Sequence record: MT446387.1
DNA length: 64,000 nt
DNA from: Escherichia phage TH09
Direction: 5' to 3' (one strand)
Of the stretch, positions 20,665 to 31,038 are shown piece by piece. Below the pieces are notes generated by a model. It saw only the letters and a program-made list of their open reading frames with translations. It did no database searches and was not told where the DNA came from. Position numbers and translations under genes: made by a program. Numbering within the stretch: the stretch's first letter is position 1; each line of letters starts with the position of its first letter.

Positions 20665-20922
20665 ATGAAAACTTTCAAAGAGTTTGCTACAAAAACTACT
20701 ATCACCGAATCTTCCCACGGTATGGAAGTAAAGCTTGGAATGGCTTTAGCTGAAGCTGAGCGTCTTTTCTCTCGTATTAAAGAACTTGCTGCTGCAGTCG
20801 ATCCTTCATCTTTTAAAGGAGACCAAACTAAAGTTAAAGCGCTTTTAGCATTATGCTCAGATGCAGGAGAAATTGCTAAAAATGGTTCTAAGATGAAGAA
20901 ACGATTAGAAGATTTAAAATAA
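20665..20922 (+). CDS. small internal-protein-like protein with capsid targeting sequence
   Basis: 85 aa; N-terminus MKTFKEFATKTTITE|S resembles the T4 IP capsid targeting sequence with an (L/I)xE prohead-protease site; at the ipI position after 57B. Confidence 0.65.
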   Translation: MKTFKEFATKTTITESSHGMEVKLGMALAEAERLFSRIKELAAAVDPSSFKGDQTKVKALLALCSDAGEIAKNGSKMKKRLEDLK

Positions 20923-20998: not shown

Positions 20999-21232
20999 AT
21001 GAAAACTTTCAAAGAGTTTATCGCTGAATCTTCTGATGTAAAAGTTGAGTTTATTTACACCGGCAAGAAAGATAAAATGGGTGAAATGCCTCATGGAGTT
21101 CTTCGTGATGCATTAGATAATTTCGGTCAACTCGCCGCAGAAGATTACGGTGATAAAATTGTTGTTACTGGTCCTGCTGCAGTTATTGAAAAATGGGCAG
21201 CAGAAAATAAATCAATTTTTCGTAAAAAATAA
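20999..21232 (+). CDS. small internal-protein-like protein with capsid targeting sequence
   Basis: ATG at 20999 gives 77 aa starting MKTFKEFIAE|SSDVK (track starts upstream at 20933). Confidence 0.6.
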   Translation: MKTFKEFIAESSDVKVEFIYTGKKDKMGEMPHGVLRDALDNFGQLAAEDYGDKIVVTGPAAVIEKWAAENKSIFRKK

Positions 21233-21290: not shown

Positions 21291-21476
21291 ATGAAACGTT
21301 GTGAATTAATTCGAAATGTTGCTATTGCAATTTCTGCTTCTGCTTTTAGTTTTTCAATGTTTGTTGGATTTATATGCGGATTATTGACTACAGCAGAAAA
21401 TGTGTTTTCGCTTGTAGTAGCATTTTTAATTGGTTTAATCGCTATCGTTATGGATAAAATTTCTAAAGGTGAATAG
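21291..21476 (+). CDS. small hydrophobic membrane protein
   Basis: 61-aa ORF with two predicted TM helices; GAGGAG SD. Confidence 0.55.
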   Translation: MKRCELIRNVAIAISASAFSFSMFVGFICGLLTTAENVFSLVVAFLIGLIAIVMDKISKGE

Positions 21477-21477
21477 A

Positions 21478-21858
21478 ATGTATAAAGTGTACGCGGATTA
21501 TCAGGCTAATCCATCTGAAAAGCCAGATTGCCAAATTGGATGGGCTCATGATACCCTGCTTGAAGCAGTAGATGCTGCTCAAAAATTAGGATATAGTTAT
21601 GTAGATATTGTTCAACCTGGCGGAACAGTTATTACTCTTGAAGAGTTTAATAATATTAAACCAAACTTTTTACTTTTTGCAGGTGATAATTATTATCCTC
21701 GCGGTGGATATGCTGATTTAATCGCTAAAGCCGCTACCGAAGATGAACTCCGTGACATTATCAAAGAAAATGAAAACAAACCAATGTATGGTTTTAATCG
21801 CTTTGATTGGTGGCAAATTGTAAATGCCCACACTCATACTATTGTTGATGAAGGGTAA
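21478..21858 (+). CDS. hypothetical protein
   Basis: ATG at 21478 (MYKVYADYQ...) with AAGGTG SD; track ORF begins at GTG 21469; about 126 aa. Confidence 0.55.
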   Translation: MYKVYADYQANPSEKPDCQIGWAHDTLLEAVDAAQKLGYSYVDIVQPGGTVITLEEFNNIKPNFLLFAGDNYYPRGGYADLIAKAATEDELRDIIKENENKPMYGFNRFDWWQIVNAHTHTIVDEG

Positions 21859-21861
21859 ATA

Positions 21862-22155
21862 ATGATTCTTTATGCTAAAGTATCATCCATTGAAAATGGA
21901 TATAAATATGATCAAGACGCGGCTAAAGCCTTGATTGATGATTATGGCGTTTTAACATGTTTTGAAGTTGAAAAGGTTTATATTGACCGTTCATCTTCTC
22001 AAGTTAAATTATTGAAGGAAGACTGTAAATTTAATACAGTAAATTTTGATTTCTTTATTGAAACAGAAAAAGGTCCTCTTGAATATGATATTTTCAAGAA
22101 TCCTTTGGGTCTTGAATGTATTGAATATACTTACATTAATATGGTGAGTAAATGA
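21862..22155 (+). CDS. hypothetical protein
   Basis: 97-aa ORF, tightly packed with neighbours. Confidence 0.5.
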   Translation: MILYAKVSSIENGYKYDQDAAKALIDDYGVLTCFEVEKVYIDRSSSQVKLLKEDCKFNTVNFDFFIETEKGPLEYDIFKNPLGLECIEYTYINMVSK

Positions 22156-22667
22156 ATATTTGTTTAGGTACTACAATTCCACAGGGTTACGTAATTGATG
22201 TCACTACCTGGGAAAATGATGGTGACAACTATAAAACTAAAACACTGTTTGGCGTAGAAGAGCATGAAATCTTACAATTCCAATATCTTTTAAAGAAGTT
22301 TAAAAGCAGACATTCTAGTACTAAAGCTGAACGTTATTGTGGTAATGGCTTGTTCAGCGAGCAATCGCTTTTTATTTATGAATACTTGGTTGAAGGACTG
22401 TTCTCAGAACAACTTTATCCAGAATTCATTAAAAAGGTCTTTGATATAGAAGTTGACCTTGGTAATAAATCCGAAGAAGACGAAGAACGTGTATTTGACT
22501 TATTCTTTGTGAATGGTAATAAAGTGCTTGAAGGACTTATTAATATTTTAGGCAGTGCTTCTGAGTATTATGATTATGATTTTTTGCGTGTAGTTGAGAG
22601 TGTTAAATACTCTTATATAGAAGAAGAAATTGTTTTGCCGACCGTTAAAATGTTTAATTTGCTTTAA
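22152..22667 (+). CDS. hypothetical acidic protein
   Basis: 171-aa ORF with ATGA overlap to the upstream gene; no recognisable motif. Confidence 0.55.
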   Translation: MNICLGTTIPQGYVIDVTTWENDGDNYKTKTLFGVEEHEILQFQYLLKKFKSRHSSTKAERYCGNGLFSEQSLFIYEYLVEGLFSEQLYPEFIKKVFDIEVDLGNKSEEDEERVFDLFFVNGNKVLEGLINILGSASEYYDYDFLRVVESVKYSYIEEEIVLPTVKMFNLL

Positions 22668-22753: not shown

Positions 22754-22826
22754 TGGGAATTAGCCAAGTTGGTAAGGCACTGGATTTTGATTCCAGGATG
22801 CAAAGGTTCGAGTCCTTTATTCCCAG
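22754..22826 (+). tRNA. tRNA-Gln (anticodon UUG), no encoded CCA
   Basis: Manual fold: acceptor tgggaat/attccca, anticodon arm ctgga-ttTTGat-tccag, T-loop ggttcgagtcc. Confidence 0.8.
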
Positions 22827-22827
22827 C

Positions 22828-22914
22828 GCGAGAATGGTCAAATTGGTAAAGGCACAGCACTTAAAATGCTGCGGAATGATTTCCTTGTGGGTTCGAGTCC
22901 CACTTCTCGCACCA
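22828..22914 (+). tRNA. tRNA-Leu (anticodon UAA), long variable arm, CCA encoded
   Basis: Acceptor gcgagaa/ttctcgc, anticodon arm cagca-ctTAAaa-tgctg, T-loop ggttcgagtcc, 3' ACCA. Confidence 0.8.
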
Positions 22915-22919
22915 AATTT

Positions 22920-22993
<74 letters not shown>

Positions 22994-23003
22994 ATTTAAT
23001 TTA

Positions 23004-23077
23004 CTCCGTGTAGCTCAGTTTGGTAGAGCGCCTGATTTGGGATCAGGAGGTCCAAGGTTCAAATCCTTGTATGGAGA
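23004..23077 (+). tRNA. tRNA-Pro (anticodon UGG), no encoded CCA
   Basis: Acceptor ctccgtg/tatggag, anticodon arm cctga-ttTGGga-tcagg; 2 nt before tRNA-Ser (dimeric-precursor arrangement known in T4). Confidence 0.78.
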
Positions 23078-23079
23078 CT

Positions 23080-23169
23080 GGAGGCGTGGCAGAGTGGTTT
23101 AATGCACCGGTCTTGAAAACCGGCAGTCGCTCCGGCGACTCATAGGTTCAAATCCTATCGCCTCCGCCA
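23080..23169 (+). tRNA. tRNA-Ser (anticodon UGA), long variable arm, CCA encoded
   Basis: Acceptor ggaggcg/cgcctcc, anticodon arm ccggt-ctTGAaa-accgg, T-loop ggttcaaatcc. Confidence 0.8.
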
Positions 23170-23174
23170 GTTTT

Positions 23175-23250
23175 GCTGATTTAGCTCAGTAGGTAGAGCA
23201 ACTCACTTGTAATGAGAAGGTCGGCGGTTCGATTCCGTCAATCAGCACCA
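23175..23250 (+). tRNA. tRNA-Thr (anticodon UGU), CCA encoded
   Basis: Acceptor gctgatt/aatcagc, anticodon loop ctTGTaa, T-loop ggttcgattcc. Confidence 0.78.
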
Positions 23251-23251
23251 A

Positions 23252-23326
23252 GGCCCTGTAGCTGGAAGGTTCAAGCAAGCGACTCATAATCGCCAGATGG
23301 TGGTTCAATTCCACCCAGGGCCACCA
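23252..23326 (+). tRNA. tRNA with anticodon CAU (Ile2/Met-type; T4 tRNA-Ile position)
   Basis: Acceptor ggccctg/cagggcc, anticodon loop ctCATaa, T-loop ggttcaattcc, 3' ACCA. Confidence 0.75.
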
Positions 23327-23339
23327 AATTAAGAATTAA

Positions 23340-23426
23340 GGGGAGTTATCCCGTAGAGGTAGCGGTGTGGACTGTAAATCCATTGTCATTGCGACTCGGG
23401 TGGTTCGACTCCATCACTCCCCACCA
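23340..23426 (+). tRNA. tRNA-Tyr-like (anticodon GUA), long variable arm
   Basis: Acceptor ggggagt/actcccc, anticodon arm gtgga-ctGTAaa-tccat, 15-nt variable arm, T-arm ggtgg-ttcgact-ccatc, 3' ACCA; not in the canonical 8-tRNA T4 set (memory). Confidence 0.65.
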
Positions 23427-23430
23427 ATTT

Positions 23431-23505
23431 GGATGTGTAGCTCAATGGCAGAGCGATCGCCTGTTAAGCGATTGGTTATAGGTTCGAATCCTATCACGTC
23501 CGCCA
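23431..23505 (+). tRNA. tRNA-Asn-like (anticodon GUU)
   Basis: Acceptor ggatgtg/cacgtcc (one G-U), anticodon arm atcgc-ctGTTaa-gcgat, T-loop ggttcgaatcc, 3' GCCA. Confidence 0.65.
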
Positions 23506-23509
23506 AATA

Positions 23510-23585
23510 CGAGGCATAGCTCAGAAGGAAGAGCAAGGACCTTCTAAGTCCTGGGTCGTAGGTTCGATCCCTACTGCCTCGACCA
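23510..23585 (+). tRNA. tRNA-Arg (anticodon UCU)
   Basis: Acceptor cgaggca/tgcctcg, anticodon arm aggac-ctTCTaa-gtcct, T-loop ggttcgatccc, 3' ACCA. Confidence 0.78.
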
Positions 23586-23902
23586 AACAAGAAGCCGGGT
23601 CGCTACCGGTAAGTCGTCGGACTGATGTTCCCTGGGTAAGGACTGGCATTAACAAATCTTTACGATCGGTTAATGCCCCCTTACATCACAGCAGAAACGG
23701 CGCACCGAATTATCGATTCGAGGAAATATCTTTGCCGTAAGCCGAGTAGCGTTTTTGACGGAACGTTCGGATATGGTTGAGATATGGCCTTTTAAAATAT
23801 TAAGTAGCGTCAACTGCTTAATAACCGGGTTCGAATCCCGGCGTTTCGTACAAACACTTGCCTTAGCAGGTGGAACCCCGACAAGGTTGCCGCAAGGCTT
23901 AG
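23586..23902 (+). ncRNA. structured non-coding region after the tRNA cluster (candidate stable small RNA or degenerate tRNA)
   Basis: About 320 nt with no convincing ORF; 9-bp hairpin ggcattaac...gttaatgcc, tRNA T-arm-like ccgggttcgaatcccgg, then a strong terminator. T4 encodes stable RNAs in its tRNA region (memory). Confidence 0.35.
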
Positions 23903-23928
23903 CCCCGACCGAAAGGTTGGGGCTTTTT
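23903..23928 (+). terminator. rho-independent terminator
   Basis: CCCCGACC-GAAA-GGTTGGGG (8 bp, one G-U) followed by CTTTTT. Confidence 0.8.
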
Positions 23929-23930
23929 GG

Positions 23931-23938
23931 TATAAATA
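23931..23938 (+). promoter_or_regulatory. late promoter TATAAATA
   Basis: TATAAATA immediately after the terminator, 40 nt upstream of the capsid-targeted ORF at 23979. Confidence 0.65.
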
Positions 23939-23978
23939 TAGTAGTATATTAAAACCACGAATTAAAACAGGAAATAAG

Positions 23979-24452
23979 ATGAAATCATATGCTCAATTTT
24001 TAAATGAAGCGGTGTTAAATGAAGCATCTAGCACCGAAATTCAAGCTGTCGCAAAAGCTGCCATTGCCGCGGGTAAATATTCCTATAAAGATGCTTCCGA
24101 TGAATCACGATTCCAATTTGCTCGTGATATGAAAGCCGAAGGATTTACAGGGAATGCAGTTAGTATGGCTTGGAAAAGTTTAGTTGCTACTGGAGCTGCT
24201 TTTGCAAAGGCTTCAGGTAAACCTGCTCCTAAAGCAGATCCTAAAGTCGCACAAGAGAAAAATATTGTTAAAGGAATTATCTCCAAATATGAAGCTATCC
24301 TTAAAGAGCTTTTAGTAATTAAAACTGAAGGCCAAAAGCTAGCTCGTGCTTATAGTTTCAAAGATAACCCACATGTTCACTCTCTTGAATATGTTGAAGA
24401 CATCCAAAAAATTATTAAAGACCGCATTTGGTCTGCTAAACAAATCAAATAA
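23979..24452 (+). CDS. internal-protein-like capsid-targeted protein
   Basis: 157 aa; N-terminus MKSYAQFLNE|A matches the CTS pattern MKTYxEFxxE|A; Ala/Lys-rich; AGGAAA SD; late promoter upstream. Confidence 0.7.
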   Translation: MKSYAQFLNEAVLNEASSTEIQAVAKAAIAAGKYSYKDASDESRFQFARDMKAEGFTGNAVSMAWKSLVATGAAFAKASGKPAPKADPKVAQEKNIVKGIISKYEAILKELLVIKTEGQKLARAYSFKDNPHVHSLEYVEDIQKIIKDRIWSAKQIK

Positions 24453-24461
24453 CATTCTTAG

Positions 24462-24487
24462 CCCTAGCCGAAAGGTTGGGGCTTTTT
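24462..24487 (+). terminator. rho-independent terminator (variant copy of 23903)
   Basis: CCCTAGCC-GAAA-GGTTGGGG followed by CTTTTT. Confidence 0.75.
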
Positions 24488-24570
24488 AGTTTGAATCGCT
24501 CGGAGAATGCTGTTACATATAACAACGTGATAAATAATTAATAACCAATAAATTATTTCAAGGATTTTAA

Positions 24571-25134
24571 ATGAAAACCTACGCCGAATTTTTAACCGAA
24601 GCAGCAAAATTACCATCTGAAGCAGATCTTACTAAAGTATTCTTCCACTTGGACCCAAAAGACCGTGGCGATTTTCTTAAGTGGAAAGCTAAAGCTATTG
24701 AAATGTACAACATCGATAATAGTTCTTTTACAATGAGTCAAGAAAATAAATTCAATAAAGCATTTTTCAAAATTTCTAAGAAATTGGCATCTGGCGCTCA
24801 GGTTCCTAAATCTGCATTAGCTACTCCTGAACGCGCACCTGTTAAAATTTCTAAGAATATGTTCGACACTAAAAAATACGTTAATGCTTTGAATAAAGCT
24901 CTTGATGCATTGGATGATGCAAAGAAGGCAGCCCGTGATCTTCAAGACGTGTACACCGATTTTGATCGTAAAACTAAAGGTTCTATTTCAAATAGCGAAC
25001 GCAATAGTGTAAGTGTTTATTCTGATAGCCTTGACGTTCTTGGCGATGCGTATACTGAAATTAAAAATCGTATTAACACTGCATCTAAGCTAAAAGCTGC
25101 CGCAGAAGCTATAATAACTAAACTAGATAAATAA
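24571..25134 (+). CDS. internal-protein-like capsid-targeted protein
   Basis: 187 aa; N-terminus MKTYAEFLTE|AAK; basic Lys/Ala-rich; size close to T4 IPIII (about 194 aa, memory). Confidence 0.7.
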   Translation: MKTYAEFLTEAAKLPSEADLTKVFFHLDPKDRGDFLKWKAKAIEMYNIDNSSFTMSQENKFNKAFFKISKKLASGAQVPKSALATPERAPVKISKNMFDTKKYVNALNKALDALDDAKKAARDLQDVYTDFDRKTKGSISNSERNSVSVYSDSLDVLGDAYTEIKNRINTASKLKAAAEAIITKLDK

Positions 25135-25142
25135 TTTTAAAT

Positions 25143-25173
25143 CCCTATCTAAATGATAGGGCTTTTTGGCATC
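25143..25173 (+). terminator. rho-independent terminator
   Basis: CCCTATC-taaat-GATAGGG followed by CTTTTT. Confidence 0.7.
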
Positions 25174-25300
25174 TAGGCCTTTCTGGATCTCTCTAGGCAT
25201 CATTTAGTTTCTACCCTTTATAATATATTATCCTATCCTTTAATTGCCCCTTCCATCCCTAGAATTCCCTAAAACTTTTTAAAAAATTTTTCACAAAACT

Positions 25301-25330
25301 GTTTACATCCCTGTTCTTCCATGGTACTAT
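25301..25330 (+). promoter_or_regulatory. T4-type early promoter
   Basis: tttttcacaaaact-GTTTAC (25301-25306), 18-nt spacer, TGG-TACTAT (25325-25330) within conserved GGTACTATACAACTATC. Confidence 0.55.
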
Positions 25331-29110: not shown

Positions 29111-30079
<969 letters not shown>

Positions 30080-30083
30080 AGTT

Positions 30084-30113
30084 GTTTACTTTCTCCTAGA
30101 ATTGTGATAGTAT
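30084..30113 (+). promoter_or_regulatory. T4-type early promoter upstream of denV
   Basis: GTTTAC (30084-30089), 18-nt spacer, TGA-TAGTAT (30108-30113). Confidence 0.5.
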
Positions 30114-30138
30114 ATTCACAGTTAATTGGAGGGATAAA

Positions 30139-30555
30139 ATGACTCGTATTAATTTGACTTTAGTATCTGAACTTGCTGATCAACATTTAATCGCAGAATA
30201 CCGTGAATTGCCGCGTGTTTTTGGTATAGTTCGTAAGCATGTGGCAAACGGTAAGCGCGTTAAAGATTTTAAAATATCTTCCGAGTTTATTTTAGGTTCT
30301 GGTCATGTTACGTTCTTTTACGATAAGTTAGAATTTTTGCGAAAGCGTCAATTAGACATTATAACGGAATGCTTAAAACGCGGGTTCAGTATAAAAGATA
30401 CTGAAGTTCCTGACATCAGCGATATTCCAGTAGAATGGAAAAATGATTATAATCCATGCAAATCAGCTATTAAATTGAGTCAACAACGACTTGATGAAAA
30501 AATTTTAATGAAACCACATTGGTATAAGTATTACGGTAAAAATATTTACATTTAA
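30139..30555 (+). CDS. denV: endonuclease V (pyrimidine dimer DNA glycosylase)
   Basis: 138 aa, [17 protein letters not shown]...WYKYYGK; size and sequence consistent with T4 endoV. Confidence 0.93.
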
Positions 30556-30564
30556 AGGAAACAT

Positions 30565-31038
30565 ATGAAAACATATCAAGAATTTATCACTGAAGCAGCT
30601 ATTAATTCTCAAATTATTGCTGAATCTTTTACTGATCTTTTGAAATTTAAAAAAGGTCAAAAAATCACTGCTGTATTGGATGATGGTACAGAAGTTGAGA
30701 TGGATGTACAGGGATATAATTATGCAGTAGATGGAAAATTGTATAATAAATCTCATGCTAAATTTGATTCATTTGACGACTTTGTTAATACAGTTGAAGA
30801 TGAAAAAACTCGTCGATCCATTGCAACTGGTGATGCTAAGGTTCTTATGGCACATGGTCATGAACGCATTCGCGCTAAACAGAATAAAATGGGCGAAGAT
30901 AATTTCGCATTAGTTGGTTATCAATCTGGTAAACAAACTTATGGTTATCAACGTACTGCTACCATGTATAATAAAAATGGTAAAATTGCCTTTGTGAATA
31001 GTAAAGGTTCTATTCAGTACGTTAAATCGTTCAAATAA
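30565..31038 (+). CDS. internal-protein-like capsid-targeted protein
   Basis: 157 aa; N-terminus MKTYQEFITE|AA is the canonical CTS decapeptide with LxE|A site; remainder unlike T4 IPII/IPIII as far as I can recall. Confidence 0.7.
   Translation: MKTYQEFITEAAINSQIIAESFTDLLKFKKGQKITAVLDDGTEVEMDVQGYNYAVDGKLYNKSHAKFDSFDDFVNTVEDEKTRRSIATGDAKVLMAHGHERIRAKQNKMGEDNFALVGYQSGKQTYGYQRTATMYNKNGKIAFVNSKGSIQYVKSFK

What the first reader, a model, noticed from the sequence alone, without database searches (positions are those of the whole stretch)
23931..25173. Two internal-protein-like genes, each with its own terminator, placed right after the tRNA cluster
ORFs 23979-24452 (157 aa, MKSYAQFLNE|A...) and 24571-25134 (187 aa, MKTYAEFLTE|A...) carry capsid-targeting N-termini and are Lys/Ala-rich like T4 internal proteins. 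The first is preceded by a TATAAATA late promoter and both are followed by variant copies of a GAAA-loop terminator. As I recall T4, IPII and IPIII lie between denV and e; here that interval is empty and the IP-like genes sit elsewhere with different sizes, so the cargo set appears rearranged.
Basis: partly seen in the sequence, partly recalled or inferred. Interest (0 to 1): 0.5.

Follow-up and report, generated by a model that had tools for sequence, protein, structure and literature searches.

The report
Two unnamed T4-type internal protein genes
Right after the tRNA genes of this T4-like phage lie two real but unnamed genes that carry the short tag T4 uses to load proteins into its head, so they are probably injected proteins sitting at a third, so far unnamed, site for such genes.

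Summary
ORF1 (23979-24452, 157 aa) and ORF2 (24571-25134, 187 aa) are intact genes under purifying selection (dN/dS 0.03-0.1). Both start with a T4 capsid-targeting sequence (MKSYAQFLNE|A, MKTYAEFLTE|A) and are basic and Lys/Ala-rich like T4 IPII and IPIII.

They are not displaced ipII/ipIII. Beyond the 10-residue leader they resemble no T4 internal protein. Their slot, between the rnaC terminator and e.8, is empty in T4, T2, T6 and PST. It holds ORF1 only, ORF2 only, or both in hundreds of Tequatrovirus and Mosigvirus genomes, and a Jiaodavirus has an ORF1 relative right after its last tRNA.

The cassettes join at the 3' half of a terminator (GGGGCTTTTTRG). Every record I inspected calls them hypothetical, and PHROG 2280 has no function. 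The ORF1 orthologue of Yersinia phage fD1 (g140) was found by LC-MS/MS in purified virions, but that list also contains non-structural proteins.

The classical locus is not vacant: an IpIV gene sits just past denV.

Best reading: two unnamed capsid-packaged, injected proteins at a third polymorphic Ip locus, probably anti-defence. That function is inferred, not shown. This is a new member of a known kind, of moderate interest.

The parts
23901..23930 (+). Terminator T1 of the tRNA/rnaD/rnaC unit (10-bp stem, GAAA loop, U5). Its 3' half, GGGGCTTTTTGG, is the left junction of the cassette array.
   Evidence: -20.3 kcal/mol, z -3.7. The alignment with T4 diverges right after GGGGCTTTTTGGTAT.
23931..23938 (+). 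TATAAATA, a T4 late-promoter motif 48 nt upstream of the ORF1 ATG.
   Evidence: Conserved in JLBYU31 and annotated as a late promoter in SA21RB. The motif count in the window equals chance, so the support is positional only.
23979..24452 (+). ORF1, 157 aa, candidate internal protein. Leader MKSYAQFLNE|A, with a second LNE|A at residues 13-16. Predicted three-helix N-domain (18-71), Pro/Lys linker (72-87) and C-terminal helical hairpin (88-154).
   Evidence: dN/dS 0.04-0.08. Found in 511 phage records. Hits phrog_2280. The fD1 g140 orthologue was detected in virions.
23979..24008 (+). ORF1 capsid-targeting sequence (10 codons).
   Evidence: Its codons differ from those of the other CTS genes, so the similarity is kept at the peptide level.
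24460..24489 (+). Terminator T2, a near copy of T1 (GAAA loop). Marks the junction between the ORF1 and ORF2 cassettes.
   Evidence: -18.3 kcal/mol. In RB14 the sequence after GGGGCTTTTT continues straight into the ORF2 leader region.
24529..24536 (+). GATAAATA, a 7/8 match to the late-promoter box, 42 nt upstream of the ORF2 ATG. Possible weak or variant late promoter.
   Evidence: Conserved in RB14, where ORF2 is the only gene in the slot. Function is not shown.
24571..25134 (+). ORF2, 187 aa, candidate internal protein. Leader MKTYAEFLTE|A. Same predicted layout as ORF1 (helical N-domain, Pro/Lys linker, long helical hairpin), but from a low-confidence model.
   Evidence: dN/dS 0.03-0.11. 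Found in 164 phage records, all at least 85% identical. Hits phrog_2280. One distant relative, P0027, has the leader MITFNEFLNE.
24571..24600 (+). ORF2 capsid-targeting sequence (10 codons).
25143..25169 (+). Terminator T3 (7-bp stem, UAAAU loop, U5). Its 3' end, AGGGCTTTTTGG, is the right junction, after which the sequence rejoins the T4 e.8 upstream region.
   Evidence: -10.5 kcal/mol.
20665..20922 (+). Context: IpV-type internal protein gene at the classical ipI locus (leader MKTFKEFATKTTITE|S).
   Evidence: phrog_3499, 'internal head protein'; PST ipV is the same size in the same position.
20999..21232 (+). Context: IpVI-type internal protein gene at the classical ipI locus (leader MKTFKEFIAE|S).
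   Evidence: (phrog_8111).
30565..31038 (+). Context: IpIV-type internal protein gene just downstream of denV, at the classical ipII/ipIII locus (leader MKTYQEFITE|A).
   Evidence: phrog_3155; RB14 Ip4; PST ipIV.

Best explanation
ORF1 and ORF2 are two unnamed members of the T4-type internal protein (Ip) class.

Proposed mechanism, with each step marked as shown or inferred:
(a) The genes are transcribed late. ORF1 would use its own TATAAATA. ORF2 would use a variant GATAAATA and/or read-through of T2. This step is inferred.
(b) The 10-residue N-terminal capsid-targeting sequence directs each protein into the prohead scaffolding core. The motif is shown. The targeting is inferred from T4 IPIII work.
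(c) The prohead protease gp21 removes the leader after LNE/LTE. The site is shown. The cleavage is inferred.
(d) The basic, Lys-rich mature proteins (about 16 and 19.7 kDa) stay with the packaged DNA. For ORF1 this is partly supported by detection of the orthologue in fD1 virions.
(e) They are ejected into the host together with the DNA. This is inferred.
(f) They act there as first-response inhibitors of a host defence, most plausibly a subtype of modification-dependent (GmrSD-type) restriction enzyme, as T4 Ip1, Ip2 and Ip3 do. This is inferred by analogy only.

The genes occupy a third Ip locus, between the rnaC terminator and e.8. That locus is built from promoter-gene-terminator cassettes, which are gained and lost by recombination in the shared terminator 3' half.
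For: Leader. CTS matches occur only at true ORF starts in the window. The leaders align with T4 IPI, IPII and IPIII (K2, F7 and E10 invariant). They use different codons and different 5' UTRs from the other Ip genes, so the peptide itself is under constraint.

Real genes. dN/dS is 0.03-0.11 across Tequatrovirus and Mosigvirus copies. ORF1 occurs in 511 phage records and ORF2 in 164.

Composition. It matches IPII and IPIII and lies at or above about 2 SD over the window mean for both K and A.

Known biology. T-even Ips share only the CTS and are otherwise diverse defence inhibitors (PMC3012670). Ip1, Ip2 and Ip3 each block a distinct GmrSD (PMC12373910).

Locus structure. The slot is empty in T4, T2, T6 and PST. 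It holds ORF1 only in JLBYU31 and fD1, and ORF2 only in RB14. In RB69 the only copy found in the slot is a frameshifted ORF2. It holds both genes in the window, SA21RB and PhAPEC2. In every junction examined (T4, JLBYU31, RB14 and the window) the break falls at GGGGCTTTTTRG. That 12-mer occurs 4 times in the window against 0.3 expected, and 3 of the 4 are here. A Jiaodavirus carries an ORF1 relative directly after its last tRNA.
Against: There is no direct evidence for ORF2 in virions.

The fD1 particle-associated list (113 proteins) also contains DenV, lysozyme e and NudE, so its specificity is only moderate.

N-terminal processing has not been shown for either protein.

ORF1 has Q at CTS position 6 where all known leaders have E, although close homologues do have E.

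TATAAATA is at chance frequency in the window, and ORF2 has only a 7/8 match.

No fold or sequence link to any characterised anti-defence protein was found, so the target is pure analogy.

Curators who named Ip4 and Ip5 in RB14 left these genes as plain ORFs.
Confidence: 0.72

Rival explanations
1. The proteins are packaged but have no specific target. They would be generic basic, Lys-rich DNA-associated head proteins that neutralise charge or help DNA packaging and ejection.
For: pI 9.4-9.5, 13-14% Lys, and a Pro/Lys-rich linker. In T4 heads, lysines of internal proteins contact DNA phosphates (PMC3012670). Strong purifying selection rather than diversifying selection overall.
Against: All three T4 Ips, long thought to be merely structural, turned out to be specific GmrSD inhibitors. 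The presence/absence polymorphism of these cassettes among near-identical phages fits an accessory host-range function better than a packaging role. The ORF1 allele is sharply more divergent than its flanks between genera.
Confidence: 0.15
2. The proteins are not packaged. They would be cytoplasmic accessory proteins whose N-terminus merely resembles the capsid-targeting sequence, either as a relic of descent from an Ip gene or as a recombination handle.
For: Neither processing nor packaging has been shown for ORF2. The fD1 proteome is contaminated with non-structural proteins. No database annotates them as Ip.
Against: The leader is conserved at the peptide level with different codons and different 5' UTRs. 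It is retained in distant homologues from Jiaodavirus, a Yersinia phage and an unknown T4-like contig (MKFKEFLAE, MLEYSEFLKE, MITFNEFLNE). A functionless 10-residue relic would not be expected to persist at dS > 1.5. The leader always ends in (L)xE followed by A, S, Q or L, as a gp21 site would.
Confidence: 0.1
3. They are ipII and ipIII orthologues that moved from the e-denV interval to behind the tRNA genes.
For: The e-denV interval is empty here, and ORF2 (187 aa) is close in size to IPIII (193 aa).
Against: BLASTP finds similarity only in the 11 leader residues, and the proteins fall in different PHROGs. SA21RB has both genes and IpIII in its normal place. IpIV sits beside denV in this window.
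Confidence: 0.02

Closest known systems
T4 internal proteins IPII (Ip2) and IPIII (Ip3)
   Same: 10-residue leader MK(T/S)Yx(E/Q)F(I/L)xE followed by Ala. Small, basic and Lys/Ala-rich. Non-essential accessory genes in a polymorphic region, each ending in its own terminator.
   Different: No sequence similarity beyond the leader. Different genomic slot (rnaC-e.8 rather than e-denV). Different PHROG (2280 versus 7857 and 5341). No experimental target is known, whereas Ip2 and Ip3 inhibit GmrSD of ECOR21 and ECOR17.
T4 IPI / IPI* (Ip1) and the polymorphic ipI locus (IpV, IpVI and others; Repoila et al. 1994, cited through PMC12373910)
   Same: Same principle: one locus holds different CTS-bearing genes in different T-even phages. 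This window itself carries IpV- and IpVI-type genes there.
   Different: The ipI locus lies upstream of the tRNA cluster, between 57B and trna.4. The present genes lie downstream of it. IPI has a longer 19-residue leader and a beta-rich fold, whereas ORF1 is predicted to be all-helical.
PeSL mobile promoter-terminator cassettes of T4-type phages (Arbiol et al. 2010, PMC2839356; Comeau et al. 2014, PMC4122927)
   Same: Indels of single small genes in hyperplastic regions are bounded by conserved stem-loop regulatory sequences, which serve as short homologies for recombination.
   Different: Here the repeated element is a terminator 3' arm plus U-tract. It is followed by a late-promoter-like box, not the early promoter that defines a PeSL. 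The sigma-70 scan found no early promoter at the junctions.
PHROG 2280 (unknown function)
   Same: Both proteins match it end to end (E 9e-61 and 1.4e-53).
   Different: The family has no annotation. ORF1 and ORF2 are not detectably homologous by BLASTP. By hhalign they share only a short C-terminal IKxRIxxAxxxK stretch (probability 19.5%).

Membership tests
T4-type internal proteins (CTS-targeted, gp21-processed, injected) | N-terminal capsid-targeting sequence, about MK(T/S)(Y/F)x(E/Q)F(I/L)xE | tested here: met
   MKSYAQFLNE and MKTYAEFLTE. The pattern occurs only at true ORF starts in the 64 kb window and aligns with T4 IPI, IPII and IPIII. ORF1 has Q6 instead of E6.
T4-type internal proteins (CTS-targeted, gp21-processed, injected) | gp21 protease site (L/I)-x-E followed by a small residue at the end of the leader | tested here: met
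   LNE|A (ORF1, and again at residues 13-16) and LTE|A (ORF2). The site rule is taken from established T4 knowledge. Cleavage itself has not been shown.
T4-type internal proteins (CTS-targeted, gp21-processed, injected) | Protein present inside purified virions (ORF1) | tested here: inconclusive
   The fD1 orthologue g140 is flagged as particle-associated by LC-MS/MS. The same list includes DenV, lysozyme e and NudE, so presence is supportive but not proof of encapsidation.
T4-type internal proteins (CTS-targeted, gp21-processed, injected) | Protein present inside purified virions (ORF2) | not tested
   No virion proteome of an ORF2-carrying phage was found in the library.
T4-type internal proteins (CTS-targeted, gp21-processed, injected) | Leader removed in the mature virion protein | not testable with these tools
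   Needs a semi-tryptic re-search of PXD026812 or N-terminal sequencing.
T4-type internal proteins (CTS-targeted, gp21-processed, injected) | Synthesis during late infection, when proheads assemble | tested here: inconclusive
   ORF1 has TATAAATA at -48. ORF2 has GATAAATA at -42. The motif is at chance frequency in the window, and there are no transcript data.
T4-type internal proteins (CTS-targeted, gp21-processed, injected) | Small, basic, Lys/Ala-rich mature protein | tested here: met
   Mature forms are 16.0 and 19.7 kDa, pI 9.5, K 13-15%, A 13-17%.
T4-type internal proteins (CTS-targeted, gp21-processed, injected) | Gene lies in one of the two described Ip loci (57B-trna.4, or next to e/denV) | tested here: not met
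   The genes lie between rnaC and e.8. PMC12373910 speaks of two Ip loci. Location is a descriptive feature, not a mechanistic one.
T4-type internal proteins (CTS-targeted, gp21-processed, injected) | Ejected into the host and inhibits a host defence | not testable with these tools
   Needs genetics and biochemistry.
IPII / IPIII orthologues | Sequence similarity of the mature protein | tested here: not met
   BLASTP against T4 IPIII finds only the leader, the seven-way alignment with T4 IPI, IPII and IPIII shows no further conserved block, and the PHROGs differ.
PeSL mobile regulatory cassettes | Conserved stem-loop at the indel boundaries | tested here: met
   In every variant compared at sequence level (T4, JLBYU31, RB14 and the window) the junction falls in GGGGCTTTTTRG of a terminator hairpin.
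PeSL mobile regulatory cassettes | Early promoter fused to the stem-loop | tested here: not met
   There is no sigma-70 or early-type promoter at T1, T2 or T3 on the plus strand. The nearest is at 25302, before e.8. A late-type box follows T1 instead.

The most novel reading that the evidence does not exclude
T-even-like phages would have a third Ip locus, immediately downstream of the tRNA/rnaC unit, which has been overlooked because T2, T4 and T6 are all empty there. It would carry a distinct two-domain helical family of injected proteins (PHROG 2280). These would inhibit host defences not covered by Ip1-3: either new GmrSD/type IV subtypes or a different first-response system. The cassettes would be exchanged between Tequatrovirus and Mosigvirus by recombination in a shared terminator arm.
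Probability: 0.3. Interest if true: 0.6.

Novelty: new member of a known kind. Interest (0 to 1): 0.42.

Why it matters
Work from 2022-2025 showed that all three T4 internal proteins are injected inhibitors of distinct GmrSD-type restriction enzymes. That work treats the T-even Ip repertoire as residing in two loci (PMC12373910, PMC9391042).

The two genes here carry the same packaging tag and are under purifying selection. They occur in hundreds of therapeutic-candidate Tequatrovirus and Mosigvirus genomes, yet every record I inspected calls them hypothetical.

If they are packaged, they extend the Ip repertoire to a third locus and give two ready candidates for new anti-defence activities. 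T2, T4 and T6 naturally lack both genes, which makes trans-complementation tests simple.

The locus is also a clean natural example of cassette gain and loss at a terminator repeat.

Tried and rejected
Searches that found no informative match:
- Pfam and NCBIfam: no significant family for either protein.
- PDB sequence search: nothing for either protein.
- Foldseek of the ORF1 model against BFVD and PDB: only self-family hits, and no significant match otherwise.

Other dead ends:
- The ORF2 model was too poor (pLDDT 58) to search.
- Profile-profile comparison of the ORF1 and ORF2 families gave probability 19.5% over 19 C-terminal residues. That is not enough to call them paralogues despite the shared PHROG.
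- The exhaustive HMMER search with ORF2 found one distant relative only.
- Rfam has no family in 23586-23920. The ARAGORN 'tRNA-Lys' call there is not supported.
- Searching the literature for the RB-phage ORF names returned nothing.
- Searching for proteomes of ORF2-carrying phages gave nothing usable. The fPS-65 and pSs-1 papers contain no proteomics.
- The Repoila 1994, Bair 2007 and AR1 papers are not held in the library.

Rejected readings: translocated ipII/ipIII, and spurious ORFs.
Full report
**What the window is.** The window is a Tequatrovirus (T4-like) genome segment, read in the opposite orientation to the standard T4 map. The 1.8 kb around the finding matches 772 phage records, with a best identity of 96.8%. 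The e-denV stretch is 100% identical to Escherichia phage JLBYU31.

The gene order around the finding, is:

| Coordinates | Feature |
|---|---|
| upstream | gene 1, 57A, 57B |
| 20665 | IpV-type gene |
| 20999 | IpVI-type gene |
| following | trna.4, trna.3, trna.2 and one extra ORF |
| 22754-23585 | ten tRNAs |
| to about 23900 | rnaD and rnaC homologues |
| 23979-24452 | ORF1 |
| 24571-25134 | ORF2 |
| following | e.8 through e.2, then nudE |
| 29585-30079 | e |
| 30139-30555 | denV |
| 30565-31038 | IpIV-type gene |
| downstream | vs.8 |

**The observation.** Both ORFs exist exactly as described. Their first ten residues are MKSYAQFLNE and MKTYAEFLTE, each followed by Ala. These align with the leaders of T4 IPI, IPII and IPIII, with K2, F7 and E10 invariant.

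A permissive pattern for this leader, scanned over all six reading frames of the window, hits only four places. All four are initiator positions of real ORFs. A fifth gene, at 20665, has the longer IPI-type leader.

The codons and the 5' UTRs of ORF1 and ORF2 differ from those of the other leader-bearing genes. In contrast, the window's IpIV gene shares its 25-nt 5' UTR and its first seven codons with T4 ipII. So the similarity at ORF1 and ORF2 is maintained at the peptide level. It is not a by-product of recent DNA exchange.

Composition is Lys/Ala-rich and basic, like IPII and IPIII, and lies at or above about 2 SD over the window's ORF average.

TATAAATA lies at 23931-23938, 48 nt before the ORF1 start. 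ORF2 has GATAAATA at -42. The octamer is no more frequent in the window than chance predicts, 11 copies against 10.3. Only its placement and its conservation in relatives count.

All three terminators fold as predicted. The first two are near-identical GAAA-tetraloop hairpins. The third is a different, weaker hairpin that shares only the 3' GGGCTTTTTGG.

**Are they real genes?** Yes.
- ORF1 relatives occur in 511 phage records and ORF2 relatives in 164.
- Pairwise dN/dS is 0.03-0.11 for both genes.
- Both match PHROG 2280 end to end, a family with no function assigned.
- Pfam, NCBIfam and the PDB give no significant match.
- Every GenBank record I inspected calls them hypothetical. This includes RB14 and RB51, where curators did name Ip4 and Ip5.

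**Are they ipII and ipIII moved elsewhere?** No.
- Beyond the leader there is no similarity to IPIII, IPII or IPI, or between the two ORFs themselves.
- The T4 Ips and the window's three other leader-bearing genes fall in PHROGs annotated as internal head or virion proteins, all different from 2280.
- Phage SA21RB carries both ORFs here and still has IpIII and Ip4 next to e.
- In this window the classical locus is not vacant. The e-denV gap is empty, but IpIV sits just past denV. The same arrangement is seen in JLBYU31 and fD1.

**The locus.** Comparison with T4 shows that the whole 1.25 kb block is an insertion or deletion whose ends lie in the 3' half of a terminator. T4 reads GGGGCTTTTTGGTATCTAAGCC... 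straight into the e.8 upstream region. The window diverges after GGGGCTTTTTGGTAT and rejoins after AGGGCTTTTTGGCATCTAGGCC.

| State of the rnaC-e.8 slot | Phages |
|---|---|
| Empty | T4, T2, T6, PST |
| ORF1 cassette only | JLBYU31, fD1 |
| ORF2 cassette only | RB14 |
| Frameshifted ORF2 (annotated ORF148c/149c) | RB69 |
| Both cassettes | the window, SA21RB, Mosigvirus PhAPEC2 |

About 127 records cover at least 80% of the two-gene query in one place.

In every junction I examined at sequence level (T4, JLBYU31, RB14 and the window) the break falls at GGGGCTTTTTRG. That 12-mer, allowing one mismatch, occurs four times in the window against 0.3 expected. Three of the four copies are here.

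This is the kind of cassette shuffling at conserved stem-loops described for T4-type hyperplastic regions (PeSLs; PMC2839356 and PMC4122927). The PeSL hallmark, an early promoter fused to the stem-loop, is absent here.

The slot is old. Klebsiella Jiaodavirus phiKp_22 has an ORF1 relative of 177 aa directly after its last tRNA. It has the same N-domain, a different C-domain and the leader MKFKEFLAE.

Against PhAPEC2, nucleotide identity runs as follows:
- 88-100% across rnaD/rnaC;
- 53-83% within the ORF1 cassette;
- 92-100% across ORF2;
- mostly 92-97% over the e.8 promoter and the 5' two-thirds of e.8, after a gapped intergenic stretch at 25146-25265, then falling to 75-82% toward the 3' end of e.8.

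The dS values agree with this picture: 1.8 for ORF1 against 0.17 for ORF2. ORF1 therefore exists as old divergent alleles in conserved flanks. ORF2 looks recently shared between the two genera.

**Protein architecture.** AlphaFold2 models ORF1 (pLDDT 77) as a small three-helix N-domain (18-71), a Pro/Lys-rich linker (72-87) and a helical hairpin (88-124 and 131-154). The ORF2 model has low confidence (pLDDT 58) but the same layout.

Foldseek against BFVD and the PDB finds nothing beyond the family itself.

hhalign links the two families only through a short C-terminal IKxRIxxAxxxK stretch, with probability 19.5%. Their common PHROG may therefore reflect the leader plus a similar helical architecture rather than demonstrable homology.

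ORF2's only distant relative (P0027, 31% identity) also begins with a CTS-like MITFNEFLNE.

**Experimental support from the literature.** Yersinia phage fD1 (HE956711) encodes g140, which is 97.5% identical to ORF1. [quoted passage not shown] Its neighbours g138, g139 (e.8) and g145 were not detected.

However, DenV, lysozyme and NudE were detected, so the list is not specific for encapsidated proteins. I found no proteome for any ORF2-carrying phage.

**Mechanism and comparison.** Reviews of T4 head assembly state that T-even internal proteins are a diverse set sharing only the CTS, and that their lysines contact packaged DNA (PMC3012670).

IPIII acts in the host cytoplasm even without its leader (PMC9391042). 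Ip1, Ip2 and Ip3 each inhibit one GmrSD variant without cross-protection. The authors of that work expect the other genes 'in the two Ip loci' to do likewise (PMC12373910).

On this basis, the most likely account for ORF1 and ORF2 has five steps:
1. late synthesis;
2. leader-directed entry into the prohead core;
3. gp21 cleavage after LNE or LTE;
4. co-ejection with the DNA;
5. inhibition of a host first-response defence.

Only the sequence features, and for ORF1 the virion association, are shown. The rest is inference.

**Verdict.** The 'internal-protein-like' reading is well supported. The 'rearranged cargo' reading is not.

What is there is a third, cassette-built Ip locus that the classical T-even phages happen to lack, carrying two unnamed candidate internal proteins. 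This is a new member of a known kind. The interest is moderate and comes mainly from giving two concrete, easily testable candidates in an active area.

Noticed in passing
window 23758-23851: ARAGORN calls a 94-nt 'tRNA-Lys(ttt)' here. It lies inside the homologue of T4 rnaC (species 1 RNA) and gets no Rfam tRNA hit, so it is probably a tRNA-like stable RNA rather than a tRNA. rnaC and rnaD have no Rfam family.
   Followed up: partly
window 23252-23326: The 'tRNA-Met(cat)' is probably the T4-type tRNA-Ile with a CAU anticodon. That is how the RB14 record annotates the equivalent gene.
   Followed up: no
window 30079-31038, compared with L001, L002, L003, L009 and L011: The e/denV/Ip locus is itself a cassette array. 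The orders seen are: T4 e-ipIII-ipII-denV; PST e-ipIII-ipIV (SA21RB e-IpIII-Ip4); RB14 e-Ip4 with no denV; this window, JLBYU31 and fD1 e-denV-IpIV. In T6, e is followed directly by a gene annotated 'site-specific RNase' (regB-like by my reading). So denV changes side relative to the Ip genes or is absent.
   Followed up: partly
window 30540-30588 compared with T4 ipII (L001 about 2196-2244): The 25 nt upstream of the IpIV start, plus its first seven codons, are identical to those of T4 ipII. The rest of the two proteins is unrelated. This is a shared 5' handle that could mediate cassette replacement.
   Followed up: no
L005 7429-7991 (RB69): RB69 ORF148c and ORF149c together are a single ORF2 orthologue interrupted by a frameshift. 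This is either a pseudogene or a sequencing error in the reference genome.
   Followed up: partly
P0014 (metagenome contig, 94 aa): This is a chimeric protein. The N-terminal 65 residues or so match the trna.3 homologue (window 21469-21858). They are fused at ...IIKEN|PHAHSLEY... to the last 30 residues of ORF1. That implies a natural deletion removing trna.2, the whole tRNA cluster, rnaC/rnaD and most of ORF1.
   Followed up: no
window 22152-22667: A 171-aa ORF lies between trna.2 and tRNA-Gln. It has no T4 counterpart and is similar to RB69ORF151c. It is present in SA21RB, JLBYU31, T2 and PhAPEC2.
   Followed up: no
window 23946-24245 compared with L008 (PhAPEC2): The N-terminal half of ORF1 is the most divergent stretch of the region between Tequatrovirus and Mosigvirus (53-70% nt identity, against more than 90% in the flanks). 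Yet the same N-domain is the part conserved out to Jiaodavirus, where the C-domain is replaced.
   Followed up: partly
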